From positions 1 to 17,065 of IMG/VR virus record IMGVR_UViG_2582580934_000003: a stretch of 17,065 nt of DNA; one strand, written 5' to 3'. Source of the DNA: a virus (Duplodnaviria > Heunggongvirae > Uroviricota > Caudoviricetes). Of the stretch, positions 8,433 through 12,607 are shown piece by piece. Under the pieces are notes generated by a model. It saw only the letters and a program-made list of their open reading frames with translations. It was not told where the DNA came from and ran no database searches. Numbering within the stretch: position 1 is the first letter of the stretch; each line of letters opens with the position of its first letter. The translations under genes were made by a program, and so were the position numbers.

Positions 8433-8732
8433 AAAAATTCCTTAATACTGATAACTGGGCGCACTATACACACGTTCCTGAAGAAAGCTATAGTTTTTTG
8501 ATGGGGTTGAAGATGGCTGGATGTCTAAAATAAACATTGCTTCATATGTTCAACTATGCGTTAATGATTGCGTCGGTTTGAAGAACAGACGATATACGAA
8601 GTAGTTTACTAAAGCAGTTCTCATTTCAGGTGTTATTCACTTATTCCTTCTTTGAGTCTCTCCAATTAAGTACGAAGTCGTTTCTGTTATACAAGCCATT
8701 TATGCCGAAAGGCTCAAGTTAAGGAATGTAGA

Positions 8733-8948
8733 ATGTCAAATAAAATGACTGGTTTAGTAAAATGGTTTAACGCTGATAAAGGTTTTGGCTTTATTTCTCC
8801 TGTTGATGGTAGTAAAGATGTGTTTGTGCATTTTTCTGCGATTCAGAATGATAATTTTCGAACCTTGTTTGAAGGTCAAAAGGTTACCTTCTCTGTAGAG
8901 AGTGGTGCTAAAGGTCCTGCAGCAGCAAATGTCATAATTACTGATTAA
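8733..8948 (+). CDS. cspB: Cold-shock protein CspB
   Basis: 71 aa [71 protein letters not shown]; long AT-rich 5' UTR. Confidence 0.9.
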
Positions 8949-9230
8949 AATTCATAGTTTGTCTGTATACGATAACGAAGAAGGCTGATGCCTGAGTGGA
9001 GATACAGACAGAGTGGTGAATATTGGATCTCTTTAATAAATAGTAAGGAGGTCCAATACATGAAACAATGGCCAGCATATTTGGCAATAACTTAATCAGG
9101 AAAAGTATGCTAACCATTGTGGTGAAGTGCAGGTTTGCTGCATGAATAGTTTTACAGCAGAAGCTAACTGCTGGCATAGCAAAACAAAGTGCGTAAGTGG
9201 ATGACTCCCACAAAAAGTACCACAATATTA

Positions 9231-9311: not shown

Positions 9312-9482
9312 TCAAGCTACAGCTTTAAGATTTGTCTGGAATACTTTGTTGCAATGAGGGCAGATCAAAAGGGCACCTTTTTGTACTCTTGAAAAACTGT
9401 GTTCTGACTCTTGGGTGCAGTTTGGGCAGGAACATTTAACGAGATAATTACGGCGTGATTTTGAGTCTTTACGTTCTGACAT
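9312..9482 (-). CDS. Small zinc-ribbon protein (56 aa, CxxC-N17-CxxC), possibly a YdfK/YnaE-like prophage protein
   Basis: MSERKDSKSRRNYLVKCSCPNC...LICPHCNK. Start taken at the internal ATG (9482), which has an AGGA RBS, instead of the track start 9533. Family name is uncertain. Confidence 0.5.
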   Translation of the reverse strand: MSERKDSKSRRNYLVKCSCPNCTQESEHSFSRVQKGALLICPHCNKVFQTNLKAVA

Positions 9483-9700
9483 AGGCTTTTCCTGTATAAA
9501 TGGCCGTATACAGTACACTAAATATGAAAACATATCTCGTATTATTATTTAATATATGATTTTCTTTTAAAATAATTACCCACATTTTTAATGTGTCTGT
9601 TTTTTAGCGCCGTTGAGAACAACGTTTGCTATAAAAACTAACCCATAGACTCCGATCTTTTCAAACATATTGCACCATCTGTGTACATCGGGGTGAGGAT

Positions 9701-9916
9701 ATGAAATCAATGGATAAGTTAACAACAGGTATCGCCTATGGCACATCGGCTGGTAATGCTGGTTTCTGGGCATTGCAGTTACTCGATAAAGTAACTCCGT
9801 CACAGTGGGCTGCAATCGGTGTGCTGGGTAGTCTGGTTTTTGGCCTGCTGACGTATCTGACAAACCTTTATTTCAAGATTAAAGAAGACAGGCGTAAGGT
9901 TGCGAGAAGAGAGTAA
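9701..9916 (+). CDS. Pinholin (phage 21 S-type class II holin, dual-start motif M1-K-S-M4)
   Basis: 71 aa, two TMDs, [18 protein letters not shown]...; paired downstream with a SAR endolysin. Confidence 0.85.
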
Positions 9917-9920
9917 TCCA

Positions 9921-10472
9921 ATGACACAAGACTATGAACTGGTTGTGAAAGGAGTCCGCAATTTTGAGAATAAAGTGGCGGTAACTGTAGCCTTACGGGA
10001 CAAAAAACGCTTTGACGGTGAAATTTTTGACCTGGACATCTCGCTGGACCGTGTTGAAGGTGCCGCGCTGGAGTTTTATGAGGCAGCAGCCAGAATGAGA
10101 ATCAGACAGGTATTCCTGGATGTTGCTGCCGGGTTATGTGTAGGGGATGAGCAGTCGCCGGAAAAGCGCCCCATAATTTTAGAGGCGCAGAATGTGTGGA
10201 TAACCTACAAAGGAAAGCTACCGGGAAGAATTACTGGTTCTCTGAAGACGCCACCGACGGCATTGCGGTCAGAAAAAGATGATATTGAATCGCCCATTGA
10301 AAAACTGGAGGGCAGCGTCGCTGATCTGAATAAAAAATTGTCGGTGCTGATCCCTTCTGAAGATGAAAAAAAACGCCGCGATGAGCAGTTTGCGGCGTTT
10401 TACGATTATTGCATTGAAGTTACTCGCAGGAATTTTGTGAAGATTTTTGAGGAGGGTAAATCTCTTCAGTAA
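9921..10472 (+). CDS. Hypothetical protein (183 aa) inserted between holin and endolysin; possibly YdfR-like
   Basis: ATG at 9921, 4 nt after the holin stop; protein-like K/E-rich composition. Same strand as the lysis genes. The YdfR suggestion rests on position only. Confidence 0.55.
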   Translation: MTQDYELVVKGVRNFENKVAVTVALRDKKRFDGEIFDLDISLDRVEGAALEFYEAAARMRIRQVFLDVAAGLCVGDEQSPEKRPIILEAQNVWITYKGKLPGRITGSLKTPPTALRSEKDDIESPIEKLEGSVADLNKKLSVLIPSEDEKKRRDEQFAAFYDYCIEVTRRNFVKIFEEGKSLQ

Positions 10473-10680
10473 GCTTAATGGCGGACGCTGCAATTAATTC
10501 AGGAAGGTCCGCAAGGTCATCTGTCAGTGGATATGATGAAAAATCGGCGGCAGTTCTGTTAAGAAGCGCTTTAACTAATTCCTTTTCCTTCTCCGGCAAC
10601 AAGTTGATTAGAGCTACGACTGCTTGCCTGAGTGCGATTAAATCAGCAAAAGTTTGTTTTGGTAGATTTGTGTAATCCAT
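10420..10680 (-). CDS. Hypothetical protein (86 aa), convergent with and overlapping the 3' end of the 183-aa gene by 53 bp
   Basis: ATG at 10680 with SD AGAGGTG 5 nt upstream; helical-looking sequence MDYTNLPKQTFADLIALRQ... Confidence 0.4.
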   Translation of the reverse strand: MDYTNLPKQTFADLIALRQAVVALINLLPEKEKELVKALLNRTAADFSSYPLTDDLADLPELIAASAIKLTEEIYPPQKSSQNSCE

Positions 10681-10793
10681 AGTCACCTCTGTGTTTATCA
10701 GATTGACATCCTCCTCCCGCCAGTGCCCATCACTGGTGAGGTAAGATTTAACATATCCGGGGATTTGAAGCCGATAAATCCTGATAAATATCC

Positions 10794-11821
<1,028 letters not shown>

Positions 11822-12181
11822 ATTAATATTAAATCGGATTATTTTTAGCGCTGAATGTGAAATTTAAATAAAAAGGACTCTTCCATGAGTCAAAATCCTT
11901 GAAATCTTAAGGGTAAGATAAAAGGTCATTAGACAGAATGACACGTTTTATTAATAAATAAAGCTATTGTTTCATTCGTGTGTTTTTCTTTACAAAAGTA
12001 ATCCTTGCTATGGTTGGTTAATCATGCGTTAATGGTGTTCTGGTTTGTTACAAAATTATCTGAAGCAGTCATTGTTATAATTTTATTATTTGTACCTCTT
12101 GAGATTTCCTTGTTGGTTTTTCTCTCTGATATTTTTTTTCGGACCATTCTGCCCAAGGGCTAACTTCTTCAAAAGGTAATA

Positions 12182-12397
12182 ATGATGTTTAACAAAATGA
12201 CTGGTTTAGTGAAATGGTTTAACCCTGAAAAAGGTTTTGGTTTCATCACGCCGAAAGATGGTAGCAAAGATGTGTTTGTGCATTTCTCAGCTATTCAGAG
12301 CAACGATTTCAAAACGTTAACTGAGAATCAGGAAGTCGAATTTGGTATTGAGAACGGACCTAAAGGCCCTGCAGCTGTTCATGTAGTGGCACTTTGA
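12182..12397 (+). CDS. cspI: Cold-shock protein CspI
   Basis: 71 aa ...[67 protein letters not shown]; long AT-rich 5' UTR. Confidence 0.9.
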
Positions 12398-12607
12398 GGT
12401 AGAAAATATTACAAACCATATTCACTTTAGATGCCCGTGTTGCCATGGTTCTCAGTATAGAACATCATCTTTTGATGTTTCTGACAGAAATCCTTTCGGG
12501 GCAAAATGTATCTTTTGTAAATCAATGATGATTACATTTGATAATATTTCACAATACTTAAATGTTAGCCATCTGTCGTTAGATTTAAGAAAGTGAAAAT
12601 GAAGGCT

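What the first reader, a model, noticed from the sequence alone, without database searches (positions are those of the whole stretch)
9921..10680. Convergent, 3'-overlapping gene pair inserted between pinholin and SAR endolysin
Phage 21-type lysis cassettes normally run S-R-Rz directly. Here a 183-aa gene on the lysis strand and an 86-aa gene on the opposite strand, overlapping by 53 bp at their 3' ends, separate holin from endolysin. The minus-strand gene has its own strong SD and must be transcribed antisense to the late operon. This is a moron position that could hold a lysis-timing regulator, a superinfection-exclusion function or a defence gene.
Basis: partly seen in the sequence, partly recalled or inferred. 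Interest (0 to 1): 0.6.

Follow-up and report, generated by a model that had tools for sequence, protein, structure and literature searches.

The report
Antisense moron cassette beside ydfR
Between the holin and endolysin genes of this E. coli prophage, the ordinary late gene ydfR has been extended by a 510-bp swappable cassette that carries a small backward-facing gene of unknown function with its own likely promoter and terminator, which is an ordinary kind of phage "moron" rather than a new type of system.

Summary
A 183-codon ORF (9921-10472, +) and an 86-codon ORF (10680-10420, -) converge and overlap by 53 bp, and the minus gene has a strong Shine-Dalgarno sequence.

- **The 183-aa gene is not an insert.** Its first 112 codons are ydfR (DUF1327), a regular resident of the holin-endolysin gap in this cassette family.
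- **The variable part is window 10257-10766.** It replaces 51 bp in "empty-site" relatives.
- **It looks like a self-contained antisense transcription unit.** It has a -10 element (TATGTT) 17 nt from a conserved -35 (TTTATC), a leader, the 86-aa ORF (p86, phrog_2572) and a hairpin plus U8 terminator (10366-10401).
- **The terminator lies inside the late-strand reading frame.** So ydfR reads on for 71 more codons and stops 53 nt inside p86.

p86 is conserved in three lineages down to about 40% identity, always with the convergent overlap. In one lineage the late-strand partner is a free-standing 73-aa gene after Rz.

The same slot, behind the same promoter-like block, holds at least six cargo families with no detectable similarity to each other. 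p86 is a small acidic three-helix protein of unknown function. This is a new member of a known kind (moron), of moderate interest.

The parts
9701..9916 (+). essQ, an S21-type class II holin (pinholin) with the MKSM dual-start motif. Context gene.
   Evidence: Pfam Phage_holin_2_1, E=7e-34. Annotated essQ in CFT073.
9921..10256 (+). ydfR N-terminal part (codons 1-112), the DUF1327 domain. A conserved late gene, not part of the insert.
   Evidence: Pfam DUF1327 covers residues 1-112. Homology to empty-site relatives runs to 10256. AF2 gives a beta-beta-beta-alpha fold for residues 1-73, pLDDT 67-82. K-12 YdfR residues 1-72 bind the RNase E catalytic domain (PMC13232886).
10257..10472 (+). Cassette-borne C-terminal tail of ydfR ('module A', codons 113-183). 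It is read in frame across the terminator of the minus gene and ends 53 nt inside that gene.
   Evidence: Absent from the 103/114/116-aa YdfR forms. Its last 35 aa align with a free-standing 73-aa gene in another lineage (BLASTP 6e-6). In-frame length variants of 176, 183 and 211 aa exist. PGAP's 'pseudogene, missing C-terminus' call looks like an artefact of aligning to short family members.
10366..10401 (-). Intrinsic-terminator-like hairpin of the minus-strand gene: AAAACGCCGC, a 12-nt loop, then GCGGCGUUUU running into a U8 tract. It starts 19 nt after the p86 stop. On the + strand it encodes EKKRRDEQFAAFY.
   Evidence: Fold -17.4 kcal/mol, z=-2.4. The hairpin is kept in two other lineages, once with compensatory changes (CGCCACC/GGTGGCG). 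The regular-expression hairpin search found it in 113 of 125 loci.
10420..10680 (-). p86, an 86-aa acidic (pI 4.6) cytoplasmic protein of three predicted helices, phrog_2572 (WP_001306174.1). Function unknown.
   Evidence: Shine-Dalgarno sequence and start conserved in three lineages. Inter-lineage dN/dS 0.2-0.29 outside the overlap. AF2 helices at 8-27, 30-48 and 56-74, pLDDT 69.
10420..10472 (.). The 53-bp 3' overlap of the two ORFs.
   Evidence: The overlap is 53 bp in window-type loci and 59 bp in the two other lineages.
10681..10743 (-). Predicted 5' leader of p86, with Shine-Dalgarno GAGGTG (10684-10689) and a hairpin CCAGTG/CACTGG (10720-10736). The transcription start is inferred, not mapped.
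   Evidence: Fold -25.3 kcal/mol, z=-3.6. The sequence block is shared with cassettes carrying other cargo. A consensus structure across lineages was not supported.
10750..10791 (-). Promoter-like region of the minus gene: -10 TATGTT (10750-10755), a 17-nt spacer, -35 TTTATC (10773-10778), inside the conserved block ATATTTATCAGGATTTATC (10773-10791). A GGATTT-N9-AAATCC palindrome (10761-10781) overlaps it.
   Evidence: The block is conserved in all three p86 lineages, including one with no R gene next to it. It occurs once in the window, against 0 expected. In 78 viral loci, every locus with a plausible antisense cargo gene has TATGTT or TATTGT at the 17-nt spacing, and the loci without one have AGGTTT, CAGCTT or CAACTT instead. 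The consensus scan missed it because the -35 matches only 3 of 6 positions.
10257..10766 (.). The actual variable insert (510 bp). It replaces 51 bp in empty-site relatives that run S, ydfR (116 aa), R.
   Evidence: blastn breakpoints against L122 and L114. GC about 0.42 against 0.47-0.53 in the flanks.
10794..11327 (+). rrrQ, a SAR-type endolysin. Context gene that must be transcribed through the cassette.
   Evidence: Pfam Phage_lysozyme, 2.6e-24. Annotated rrrQ.
10478..10675 (+). A 65-aa 'shadow' ORF antisense to p86. Judged not to be a gene.
   Evidence: This frame shares third codon positions with p86 and stays open in all lineages. It has no conserved start and no well-placed Shine-Dalgarno sequence, and its cross-lineage identity and BLOSUM score are lower than in the p86 frame.

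Best explanation
The finding is two things joined together.

**1. ydfR.** This is a normal late gene of this S21-type lysis cassette. Its product has the DUF1327 N-domain. The K-12 orthologue of that domain was reported in 2026 to bind the catalytic half of RNase E.

**2. A 510-bp antisense moron cassette (10257-10766)** that occupies the ydfR/R junction. Read on the minus strand, the cassette is a complete small transcription unit:
- a -10 element that completes a promoter with a -35 lying in the conserved flank next to the R start codon;
- a leader of about 60 nt with a strong Shine-Dalgarno sequence;
- the 86-codon gene p86;
- a hairpin plus U8 terminator.

The 3' end of the cassette is open in one late-strand frame. 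So ydfR is translated on for 71 more codons, through the terminator stem (which spells KKRRDEQFAAF), and stops 53 nt inside p86. The '3' overlap' is therefore the footprint of a gene end and terminator packed inside late-strand coding sequence. It has been inherited in all three p86 lineages.

**Inferred behaviour.** p86 is made from its own promoter in the lysogen or early in infection. Once Q-dependent late transcription runs through it toward R and Rz, p86 is shut off by polymerase collision and by fully complementary late RNA.

**Inferred role.** p86 is a small acidic helical binding protein that acts on a host or phage protein in some conflict-type or lysogen-benefit function. The reason for this guess is that the slot is hypervariable: at least six cargo families with no detectable similarity to each other sit behind the same promoter block.

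**What is shown:** the anatomy, the conservation, the boundaries and the slot diversity.

**What is inferred:** promoter activity, timing of expression and protein role.
For: **ydfR and its variable tails**
- DUF1327 covers only residues 1-112.
- The YdfR family has interchangeable tails of 103 to 296 aa.
- YdfR binding to RNase E is reported in PMC13232886.

**Boundaries of the insert**
- Empty-site relatives place the insert at 10257-10766, against 51 bp in those relatives.
- The cassette has lower GC than its flanks.
- Only about 5% of E. coli genomes and 8 phage records carry it.

**p86 is a real gene**
- Homologues at 38-57% identity exist.
- The Shine-Dalgarno sequence and start are conserved.
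- dN/dS is 0.2-0.29 outside the overlap.
- The ORF is intact in 120 of 125 loci.

**Terminator**
- The hairpin and U tract fold well.
- The hairpin is kept in two other lineages, once with compensatory changes.
- Analogous terminators follow most of the other cargo genes examined.

**Promoter-like block**
- It is conserved even where no R gene is adjacent.
- The -10 hexamer co-occurs with the presence of cargo.

**The cassette moves as a unit**
- In another lineage it sits after Rz, where the late-strand partner is a free-standing 73-aa gene with a 59-bp overlap.
Against: - No transcription data were available. The promoter is weak by consensus (-35 matches 3 of 6, -10 matches 4 of 6), and the scan tool did not call it.
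- In R-adjacent contexts the conserved upstream block could be kept for the endolysin's own leader. Only the post-Rz lineage argues otherwise.
- dN/dS cannot fully separate p86 from its shadow frame, because the two frames share third codon positions.
- The late-strand tail may be more than read-through. The first 36 codons of the free-standing 73-aa version have omega 0.23-0.33, against about 1 in the other frames. A module-A-like segment also persists in 296-aa and 213-aa forms without p86.
- Nothing identifies what p86 binds or does.
Confidence: 0.6

Rival explanations
1. The late-strand tail ('module A') and p86 form a functional two-protein module. For example, p86 made in the lysogen could bind and hold the module-A helices (free-standing, or as the tail of YdfR) that are made late. 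That would give a lysogeny-to-lysis timer or an antidote/effector pair, and the convergent overlap would couple their expression inversely.
For: - The two genes travel together in three lineages and at two different genomic sites, always with a 53-59 bp overlap.
- The free-standing 73-aa form has its own Shine-Dalgarno sequence, and its ATG overlaps the end of Rz.
- Its N-terminal half is under purifying selection, omega 0.23-0.33.
- Both partners are predicted to be helical.
Against: - The conserved core of module A coincides with the terminator stem and with the 3' end of p86, so its similarity across lineages may be forced.
- BLASTP finds no similarity between the lineage 2 and lineage 3 tails.
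- Other cargo families overlap quite different YdfR tails or none: a 35-bp overlap with the 114-aa form, a 68-bp overlap, or small gaps.
- Module-A-like sequence occurs without p86.
- No complex prediction could be run.
Confidence: 0.2
2. p86, the long YdfR form, or both, regulate lysis. They could tune pinholin triggering or SAR-endolysin release, or act as a safety lock against leaky R/Rz expression in lysogens through antisense transcription.
For: - The cassette sits inside the lysis cassette, directly upstream of R.
- Minus-strand transcription would oppose read-through into R and Rz (anatomy).
- R has no Shine-Dalgarno sequence, and a palindrome lies 13 nt before its ATG.
Against: - p86 and YdfR have no predicted membrane or signal segments, whereas the holin and the SAR endolysin act in or beyond the membrane.
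- Functional phages exist with S-ydfR-R and no cargo, such as Tritos and mEp460.
- At least six cargo families with no detectable similarity to each other occupy one slot, which is hard to reconcile with one conserved lysis role.
Confidence: 0.12
3. The 86-aa ORF is not translated. The functional product would be an antisense RNA, or the real gene would be the + strand 65-aa ORF (10478-10675), with p86 as its shadow.
For: - The opposite frame that shares third codon positions stays open for 71-90 codons in every lineage, so dN/dS does not discriminate between the two.
- No expression data exist.
Against: - The start codon and a well-spaced Shine-Dalgarno sequence are conserved only for p86.
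- The + ORF has an ATG in the window lineage only, and its nearest Shine-Dalgarno-like sequence is about 20 nt away.
- Identity and BLOSUM scores are higher in the p86 frame in all three inter-lineage comparisons.
- p86 folds into three amphipathic helices, whereas the shadow peptide is rich in Ser and Ala.
Confidence: 0.06
4. The pair is a toxin-antitoxin or abortive-infection system.
For: It consists of two small adjacent genes in a prophage, with overlapping convergent transcripts as in some type I systems.
Against: - No PADLOC, Pfam or NCBIfam hit.
- There is no hydrophobic toxin-like peptide.
- The genes are convergent rather than in one operon.
- One partner is usually just the tail of ydfR.
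Confidence: 0.02

Closest known systems
Morons of lambdoid phages (Hendrix/Juhala definition), for example lambda bor, which is transcribed against the late operon just after Rz
   Same: - An extra gene present in some relatives and absent in others at the same junction.
- Its own promoter-like and terminator elements.
- Lower GC than the flanks.
- Antisense to the late operon, next to the lysis genes.
- One p86 lineage sits exactly in the bor-like position between Rz and the terminase genes.
   Different: - bor encodes a lipoprotein with a signal peptide; p86 is a cytoplasmic helical protein.
- This cassette sits between ydfR and R, shares its -35 with the R-proximal flank, and has its terminator and 3' end buried in late-strand coding sequence.
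- Expression in lysogens is not shown here.
YdfR / DUF1327 (PF07041), Qin prophage protein of E. coli K-12
   Same: Residues 1-112 of the 183-aa protein are a clear family member, in the same position between essQ and rrrQ. The K-12 protein binds the RNase E N-terminal half through residues 1-72 and co-purifies RNA (PMC13232886).
Convergent antisense control in phages (lambda oop/cII, P22 sar/ant)
   Same: Convergent transcripts are complementary at their 3' ends, so inverse expression of the two partners is plausible.
   Different: Those antisense partners are short non-coding RNAs with a demonstrated regulatory role. Here the antisense unit encodes a conserved protein, and any regulatory effect is only inferred.
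TPR_10-type helical repeats (as in CHAT-domain proteins)
   Same: p86 residues 12-75 align with about 1.5 repeats of a TPR_10/CHAT protein in several registers (35% identity, BLASTP 3e-6 for the single comparison; phmmer 1.6e-10 summed over 8 stretches). The three-helix prediction fits this.
   Different: No Pfam TPR model hits p86, and the fold searches are non-specific. This is a lead for 'protein-binding helical hairpin', not evidence of membership.

Membership tests
Moron (autonomous extra gene in a phage operon) | Present in some and absent in other closely related phages at the same junction | tested here: met
   Window 10257-10766 replaces 51 bp in L122 and L114. 294 of 5426 E. coli genomes carry the insert, against 5153 that match the cassette.
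Moron (autonomous extra gene in a phage operon) | Own terminator | tested here: met
   A 10-bp GC-rich stem plus U8 on the minus strand at 10366-10401. This is a prediction only; termination was not measured.
Moron (autonomous extra gene in a phage operon) | Own promoter | tested here: inconclusive
   TTTATC-17-TATGTT is conserved across lineages, and the -10 co-occurs with cargo. It is weak by consensus and was missed by the scan. No transcription start data.
Moron (autonomous extra gene in a phage operon) | Expressed from the prophage independently of the surrounding operon | not testable with these tools
   Needs strand-specific RNA-seq or reporter fusions.
Moron (autonomous extra gene in a phage operon) | Base composition differs from the flanks | tested here: met
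   GC 0.415-0.425 across 10300-10800, against 0.47-0.535 in the flanks. The difference is modest.
YdfR / DUF1327 (PF07041) | Pfam match above the gathering score | tested here: met
   140.8 bits against a cut-off of 25, residues 1-112.
YdfR / DUF1327 (PF07041) | Binds the RNase E catalytic domain (reported for K-12 YdfR) | not testable with these tools
   Known only from PMC13232886. Transferred here by homology of residues 1-73.
S21-type lysis cassette (pinholin, SAR endolysin, Rz/Rz1) | Class II S21 holin, a lysozyme with an N-terminal SAR-like segment, and Rz with an embedded Rz1 | tested here: met
   PF04971, PF00959 and DUF2514 hits. An embedded lipoprotein ORF lies at 11475-11771. SAR behaviour is inferred from the sequence.
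Toxin-antitoxin or known anti-phage defence system | Match to a known toxin, antitoxin or defence protein model | tested here: not met
   No PADLOC, Pfam or NCBIfam hit for either protein or for the tail.
TPR repeat proteins | Match to a TPR family model | tested here: not met
   No Pfam TPR hit at E<=0.1. The only similarity is pairwise, to TPR_10 repeats of P0139.
DUF1823 (the label given to p86 in the PhiR phage records) | Pfam DUF1823 match | tested here: not met
   The Pfam scan of p86 gives only a sub-threshold ABATE hit (E=0.078). The label in PV340545 is not reproduced.

The most novel reading that the evidence does not exclude
The ydfR/R junction of S21-type lysis cassettes may be a dedicated antisense cargo slot that comes with its own promoter. 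A shared promoter and leader block next to the endolysin start drives interchangeable small genes, at least six families with no detectable similarity to each other. Their terminators and 3' ends are buried in the late reading frame, so each cargo also rewrites the C-terminus of the RNase E-binding protein YdfR.

In the p86 cassette, the late-strand piece (module A) and p86 would then be a true two-component unit that moves between sites. Its expression would be reciprocally wired to the lysogeny/lysis decision. For example, a lysogen-made inhibitor could be titrated by a late-made partner, giving an exclusion, anti-defence or lysis-safety function.
Probability: 0.15. Interest if true: 0.6.

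Novelty: new member of a known kind. Interest (0 to 1): 0.35.

Why it matters
- **Annotation.** The 183-aa ydfR allele is intact, not a pseudogene. It is a mosaic of a conserved domain and a cassette-derived tail. The 'DUF1823' label on p86 is unfounded.
- **A testable hot-spot.** The work defines a compact hot-spot inside the lysis cassette of E. coli lambdoid and Stx-type prophages, where small genes of unknown function are exchanged behind a common promoter-like block. Slots of this kind have repeatedly yielded exclusion, anti-defence or host-fitness genes. The six cargo families (phrog_2572, 2411, 18136, 25324, 10490, 1853) are reasonable candidates for screening.
- **Gene packing.** It is a clean example of an intrinsic terminator encoded inside a converging gene. 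This can mimic protein homology (the KKRRDEQFAAF motif).
- **Limits.** None of this is surprising in kind, and the biochemical function remains unknown.

Tried and rejected
**Function searches that gave nothing**
- Pfam, NCBIfam and PADLOC for p86 and for the tail: nothing.
- PHROGs: only unknown-function families.
- Sequence searches against PDB: nothing significant. The best was AcrIIC4 at E about 0.2.

**Homologue and RNA searches**
- Word-indexed homologue search for p86: only E. coli proteins at 85% identity or more. The exhaustive phmmer search was needed to find the 41-57% relatives.
- The GTDB species-representative scan found only E. coli. The metagenome scan added no new lineage.
- hhalign between p86 and two other cargo families was not significant.
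- Rfam: only the cspA thermoregulators elsewhere in the window, and nothing credible in the cassette.

**Tests with limits**
- The consensus promoter and terminator scan missed both proposed elements. The -35 matches only 3 of 6 positions, and the terminator loop is 12 nt.
- dN/dS as proof of the p86 frame is compromised, because the antisense shadow frame shares third codon positions.
- A consensus leader structure across lineages was not supported.

**Ideas dropped**
- A TTG mini-ORF ending in ATGA at the R start, which would give translational coupling. It is not conserved in PhiR5_1.
- The toxin-antitoxin reading was rejected.

**Literature**
- Searches for DUF1327, the p86 accession, and antisense genes between holin and endolysin found no prior functional study.
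Full report
**1. Source and observation**

The window is 100% identical to a lambdoid (Qin-like) prophage of phylogroup B2 E. coli, including CFT073, S88 and APEC O1. CFT073 annotates the local gene order as quuQ-like Q, cspF, cspB, ynfU, essQ, a 'YdfR family' gene, a hypothetical gene on the opposite strand, rrrQ, rzpQ and cspI.

- holin at 9701-9916 (+);
- a 183-codon ORF at 9921-10472 (+);
- an 86-codon ORF from ATG 10680 to stop 10420-10422 (-);
- endolysin at 10794-11327 (+);
- Rz at 11324-11821 with an embedded Rz1-like ORF.

The two ORFs share 53 bp (10420-10472). The minus ATG is preceded by GAGGTG.

**2. The 183-aa gene is ydfR plus a foreign tail**

Pfam DUF1327 (YdfR) matches residues 1-112 only, with E=1.6e-41. 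The family occurs in discrete length classes that share this N-terminal part and differ in the tail: 103, 114/116, 171/176/183, 211, 268 and 296 aa.

Phage Tritos and K-12 Qin carry S, ydfR (103 aa) and R with the ydfR stop overlapping the R start. 101 phage records encode the N-domain. ydfR is therefore a regular occupant of the S-R gap, not an insertion.

PGAP labels the CFT073 copy 'pseudogene, missing C-terminus' and annotates only the first 112 codons. Three facts argue against a pseudogene:
- the 183-codon frame is intact;
- it matches phrog_2091 end to end;
- the exact protein is annotated as 'YdfR family protein' in other records and is recorded on at least 1000 contigs, the tool's counting cap.

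The only functional information on the family is a 2026 study. It reports that K-12 YdfR binds the catalytic N-terminal half of RNase E (and RNase G) through residues 1-72 and co-purifies RNA (PMC13232886). The AF2 model has three parts:
- a beta-beta-beta-alpha domain for residues 1-73 (pLDDT 67-82);
- a low-confidence stretch at 74-146;
- two low-confidence helices in the tail.

**3. Boundaries of the real insert**

'Empty-site' relatives run S, ydfR (116 aa), R. Against them, homology to the window runs up to 10256 and resumes at 10767. In between, the window has 510 bp where the relatives have 51 bp.

- The insert has GC of about 0.42, against 0.47-0.53 in the flanks.
- Of 5426 complete E. 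coli genomes, 5153 match the cassette but only 294 carry the insert.
- Of 245 phage records that match the cassette, only 8 encode p86. These include the phages 2H10, PhiR63_1, PhiR5_1 and PhiR12.

**4. The 86-aa gene (p86) is real but narrow**

The word-indexed search found only E. coli proteins at 85% identity or more. An exhaustive phmmer search added a 93-aa relative (57% identity over the aligned stretch, 49% in a full alignment) and an 89-aa relative (41%).

All three lineages keep the reading frame, the start codon and a well-spaced Shine-Dalgarno sequence (GAGGTG-ACT-ATG, or AAGGA-N6-ATG/GTG). Inter-lineage dN/dS outside the overlap is 0.2-0.29 with near-saturated synonymous sites.

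There is a caveat. The antisense frame that shares third codon positions stays open in every lineage. In the window it is the 65-aa + ORF at 10478-10675. So dN/dS alone cannot choose the strand. The p86 frame is preferred for three reasons:
- only p86 has a conserved start and Shine-Dalgarno sequence;
- identity and BLOSUM scores are higher in its frame in all three inter-lineage comparisons;
- it folds into three amphipathic helices (8-27, 30-48, 56-74; pLDDT 69).

Of 125 evaluable loci from viral and metagenome collections, 120 have an intact p86 ORF.

p86 is acidic (pI 4.6) and shows no obvious signal or membrane segment on reading the sequence. It has no Pfam, NCBIfam or PADLOC match and no informative structural neighbour.

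The one lead is that residues 12-75 align in several registers with about 1.5 TPR_10-type repeats of a CHAT-domain protein. That suggests a protein-binding helical hairpin. No TPR model matches p86 itself.

**5. p86 sits in what looks like a complete antisense transcription unit**

*Downstream.* Nineteen nucleotides after the stop, the minus strand forms a 10-bp stem, AAAACGCCGC/GCGGCGUUUU, that runs into a U8 tract (10366-10401; -17.4 kcal/mol). The hairpin is kept in the other two lineages, once with compensatory changes (CGCCACC/GGTGGCG). The regular-expression hairpin search found it in 113 of 125 loci.

On the plus strand this hairpin encodes EKKRRDEQFAAFY. That is exactly the most conserved motif of the ydfR tail. 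At least part of the apparent protein similarity among tails is therefore the terminator.

*Upstream.* A 19-nt block, ATATTTATCAGGMTTTATC (window 10773-10791, minus strand), is conserved in all three lineages. These include the lineage in which no endolysin gene is adjacent. The block occurs once in the window, against 0 expected. It supplies a -35-like TTTATC, and 17 nt downstream lies TATGTT/TATTGT with the A2 and T6 positions invariant.

**6. The pair is a mobile unit**

In lineage 3 the order on the late strand is R, Rz, a free-standing 73-aa gene whose ATG overlaps the Rz end, the convergent 93-aa p86 homologue (59-bp overlap), the promoter-like block, and then terminase genes (loci L006 and L091-L095; not found in complete E. 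coli genomes). This is the position that bor occupies in lambda.

- The last 35 residues of the 73-aa protein align with the end of the window's tail (43% identity, E=6e-6).
- Its first 36 codons are free of hairpin and overlap constraints. They show omega 0.23-0.33, against about 1 in the other frames.

So the late-strand piece may itself be a protein under selection.

In lineage 2 (L096-L102; found in 7 complete E. coli genomes) a different YdfR tail ends in a module-A-like helix. It overlaps its p86 homologue by 59 bp.

However, a module-A-like segment also occurs inside the 296-aa YdfR form, which has no antisense gene. It also occurs in a 213-aa mosaic.

**7. The slot is hypervariable**

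I scanned IMG/VR for the 19-nt block, and 78 of the loci examined could be evaluated.

Downstream of the block, on the antisense strand, lie at least six small-gene families plus one 233-aa gene:
- the p86 family;
- a 90-aa 'MDNNTISL' family (phrog_2411, the commonest), convergent with the 114-aa YdfR with a 35-bp overlap;
- an 87-91-aa family (phrog_18136), with a 68-bp overlap with a 176-aa YdfR;
- the 104-aa gp06 family of Stx2 phage 86 (phrog_1853), with a 9-bp gap after a 268-aa YdfR;
- a 98-aa family (phrog_25324);
- a family of about 95 aa (phrog_10490).

None has a Pfam match. hhalign finds no significant relation between p86 and the two families tested. Most of these cargo genes are followed by a hairpin and U tract.

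Every locus with a plausible cargo gene has TATGTT or TATTGT at the 17-nt spacing. The 22 loci without one have AGGTTT, CAGCTT or CAACTT there instead. The -10 therefore belongs to the cassettes and the -35 to the common flank.

**8. How it most likely works**

*Shown:* the anatomy, the boundaries, the conservation, the mobility and the cargo diversity.

*Inferred:* p86 is transcribed from its own weak sigma-70-type promoter when the late operon is silent, in the lysogen or early in infection, and it terminates at the embedded hairpin. The late transcript must cross the whole cassette to reach R and Rz. Once Q-dependent late transcription starts, it would silence p86 by convergent transcription and by complete RNA complementarity.

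The 53-bp ORF overlap is then a consequence of packing a gene end and terminator inside a late-strand frame that happens to stay open. It is not a special regulatory device.

The function of p86 is unknown. I favour a binding or inhibitor protein acting in a lysogen-benefit or phage-conflict role, because unrelated small genes are swapped at this one promoter. Confidence in that role is only about 0.3. The rivals are listed with their tests: a two-protein p86/module-A unit, a lysis regulator or safety lock, an untranslated antisense RNA, and a toxin-antitoxin system.

**9. Comparison and verdict**

The cassette meets the comparative definition of a moron. It is present or absent at a fixed junction, has its own terminator, shows a composition shift and has a plausible promoter. 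Expression is untested. The closest analogue is lambda bor in orientation and neighbourhood. The cassette is not a member of any known defence, toxin-antitoxin or anti-CRISPR family.

Both proteins already exist in databases as hypothetical or PHROG families. What this analysis adds is:
- the dissection of the 183-aa ORF into ydfR plus a cassette tail;
- the terminator embedded in coding sequence;
- the shared promoter block;
- the multi-cargo slot.

Verdict: a new member of a known kind, of moderate interest.

Noticed in passing
window 8572-9011 and 12027-12443 (+): Two full-length Rfam cspA thermoregulator leaders (160 and 105 bits) precede the csp genes at 8733-8948 and 12182-12397 (annotated cspB and cspI in CFT073). 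The lysis cassette is therefore bracketed by cold-shock morons. The RNase E paper notes that the Qin lysis cluster is reported as cold-induced.
   Followed up: partly
window 9921-10256; CFT073 locus tag C_RS30310 (L001 9322-9657): RefSeq/PGAP annotates this ydfR allele as a pseudogene 'missing C-terminus', although the 183-codon frame is intact and is widely annotated elsewhere. This is probably an artefact of aligning to the short family members.
   Followed up: yes
window 10761-10796: The endolysin gene has no recognisable Shine-Dalgarno sequence. Its ATG (10794) is preceded by two GATAAAT repeats 10 bp apart and by a GGATTT-N9-AAATCC palindrome (10761-10781) that overlaps the proposed -35 and spacer of the antisense promoter. 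This could be an operator or a leader hairpin affecting R translation.
   Followed up: no
window 10478-10675 (+): A 65-aa ORF lies antisense to p86 in the frame that shares third codon positions. It stays open (71-90 codons) in all three p86 lineages, which is a textbook shadow ORF and makes dN/dS uninformative about strand.
   Followed up: yes
L003 (phage PhiR5_1, PV340545) 1961-2221, and the PhiR12 records: In these phage records p86 is labelled 'DUF1823 containing protein'. A Pfam scan of the window's p86, which is about 91% identical, does not reproduce that assignment.
   Followed up: yes
L003 1378-2013; proteins P0046 and P0104: The 211-aa YdfR form is a mosaic. Its middle (STPTKNEVLAADEMKETILDRAAHL...) is the tail that accompanies the 87-91-aa cargo family, followed by the last 35 residues of module A. 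This is evidence of recombination between cassettes.
   Followed up: partly
L098, L100, L101, L102 (243-aa YdfR forms): Lineage 2 tails carry an extra in-frame insertion of about 69 aa. The 243-aa form hits phrog_11851 over residues 130-225, which spans this insertion. This shows further modular growth of the YdfR tail.
   Followed up: no
NZ_CP099721.1 (hit H1, strain EC21GDE043): In this strain the otherwise identical region is split by an IS3-family transposase inside or next to the lysozyme gene.
   Followed up: no
window 9312-9533 (-): A CxxC...CxxC zinc-ribbon ORF (YnfU-like) is encoded antisense between cspB and essQ. It is another small antisense gene just upstream of the lysis cassette.
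   Followed up: no
window 11475-11771 (+): An Rz1-type o-spanin ORF with a lipobox (LTSC) lies wholly embedded in the +1 frame of rzpQ (DUF2514). It is not annotated in the CFT073 table that was shown.
   Followed up: no
L135 (IMG/VR contig IMGVR_UViG_2713897056_000002): One locus carries a much larger antisense ORF (233 aa as called by my ORF script, 210 aa as submitted for scanning) in the same slot. It has no Pfam or PHROG match.
   Followed up: partly
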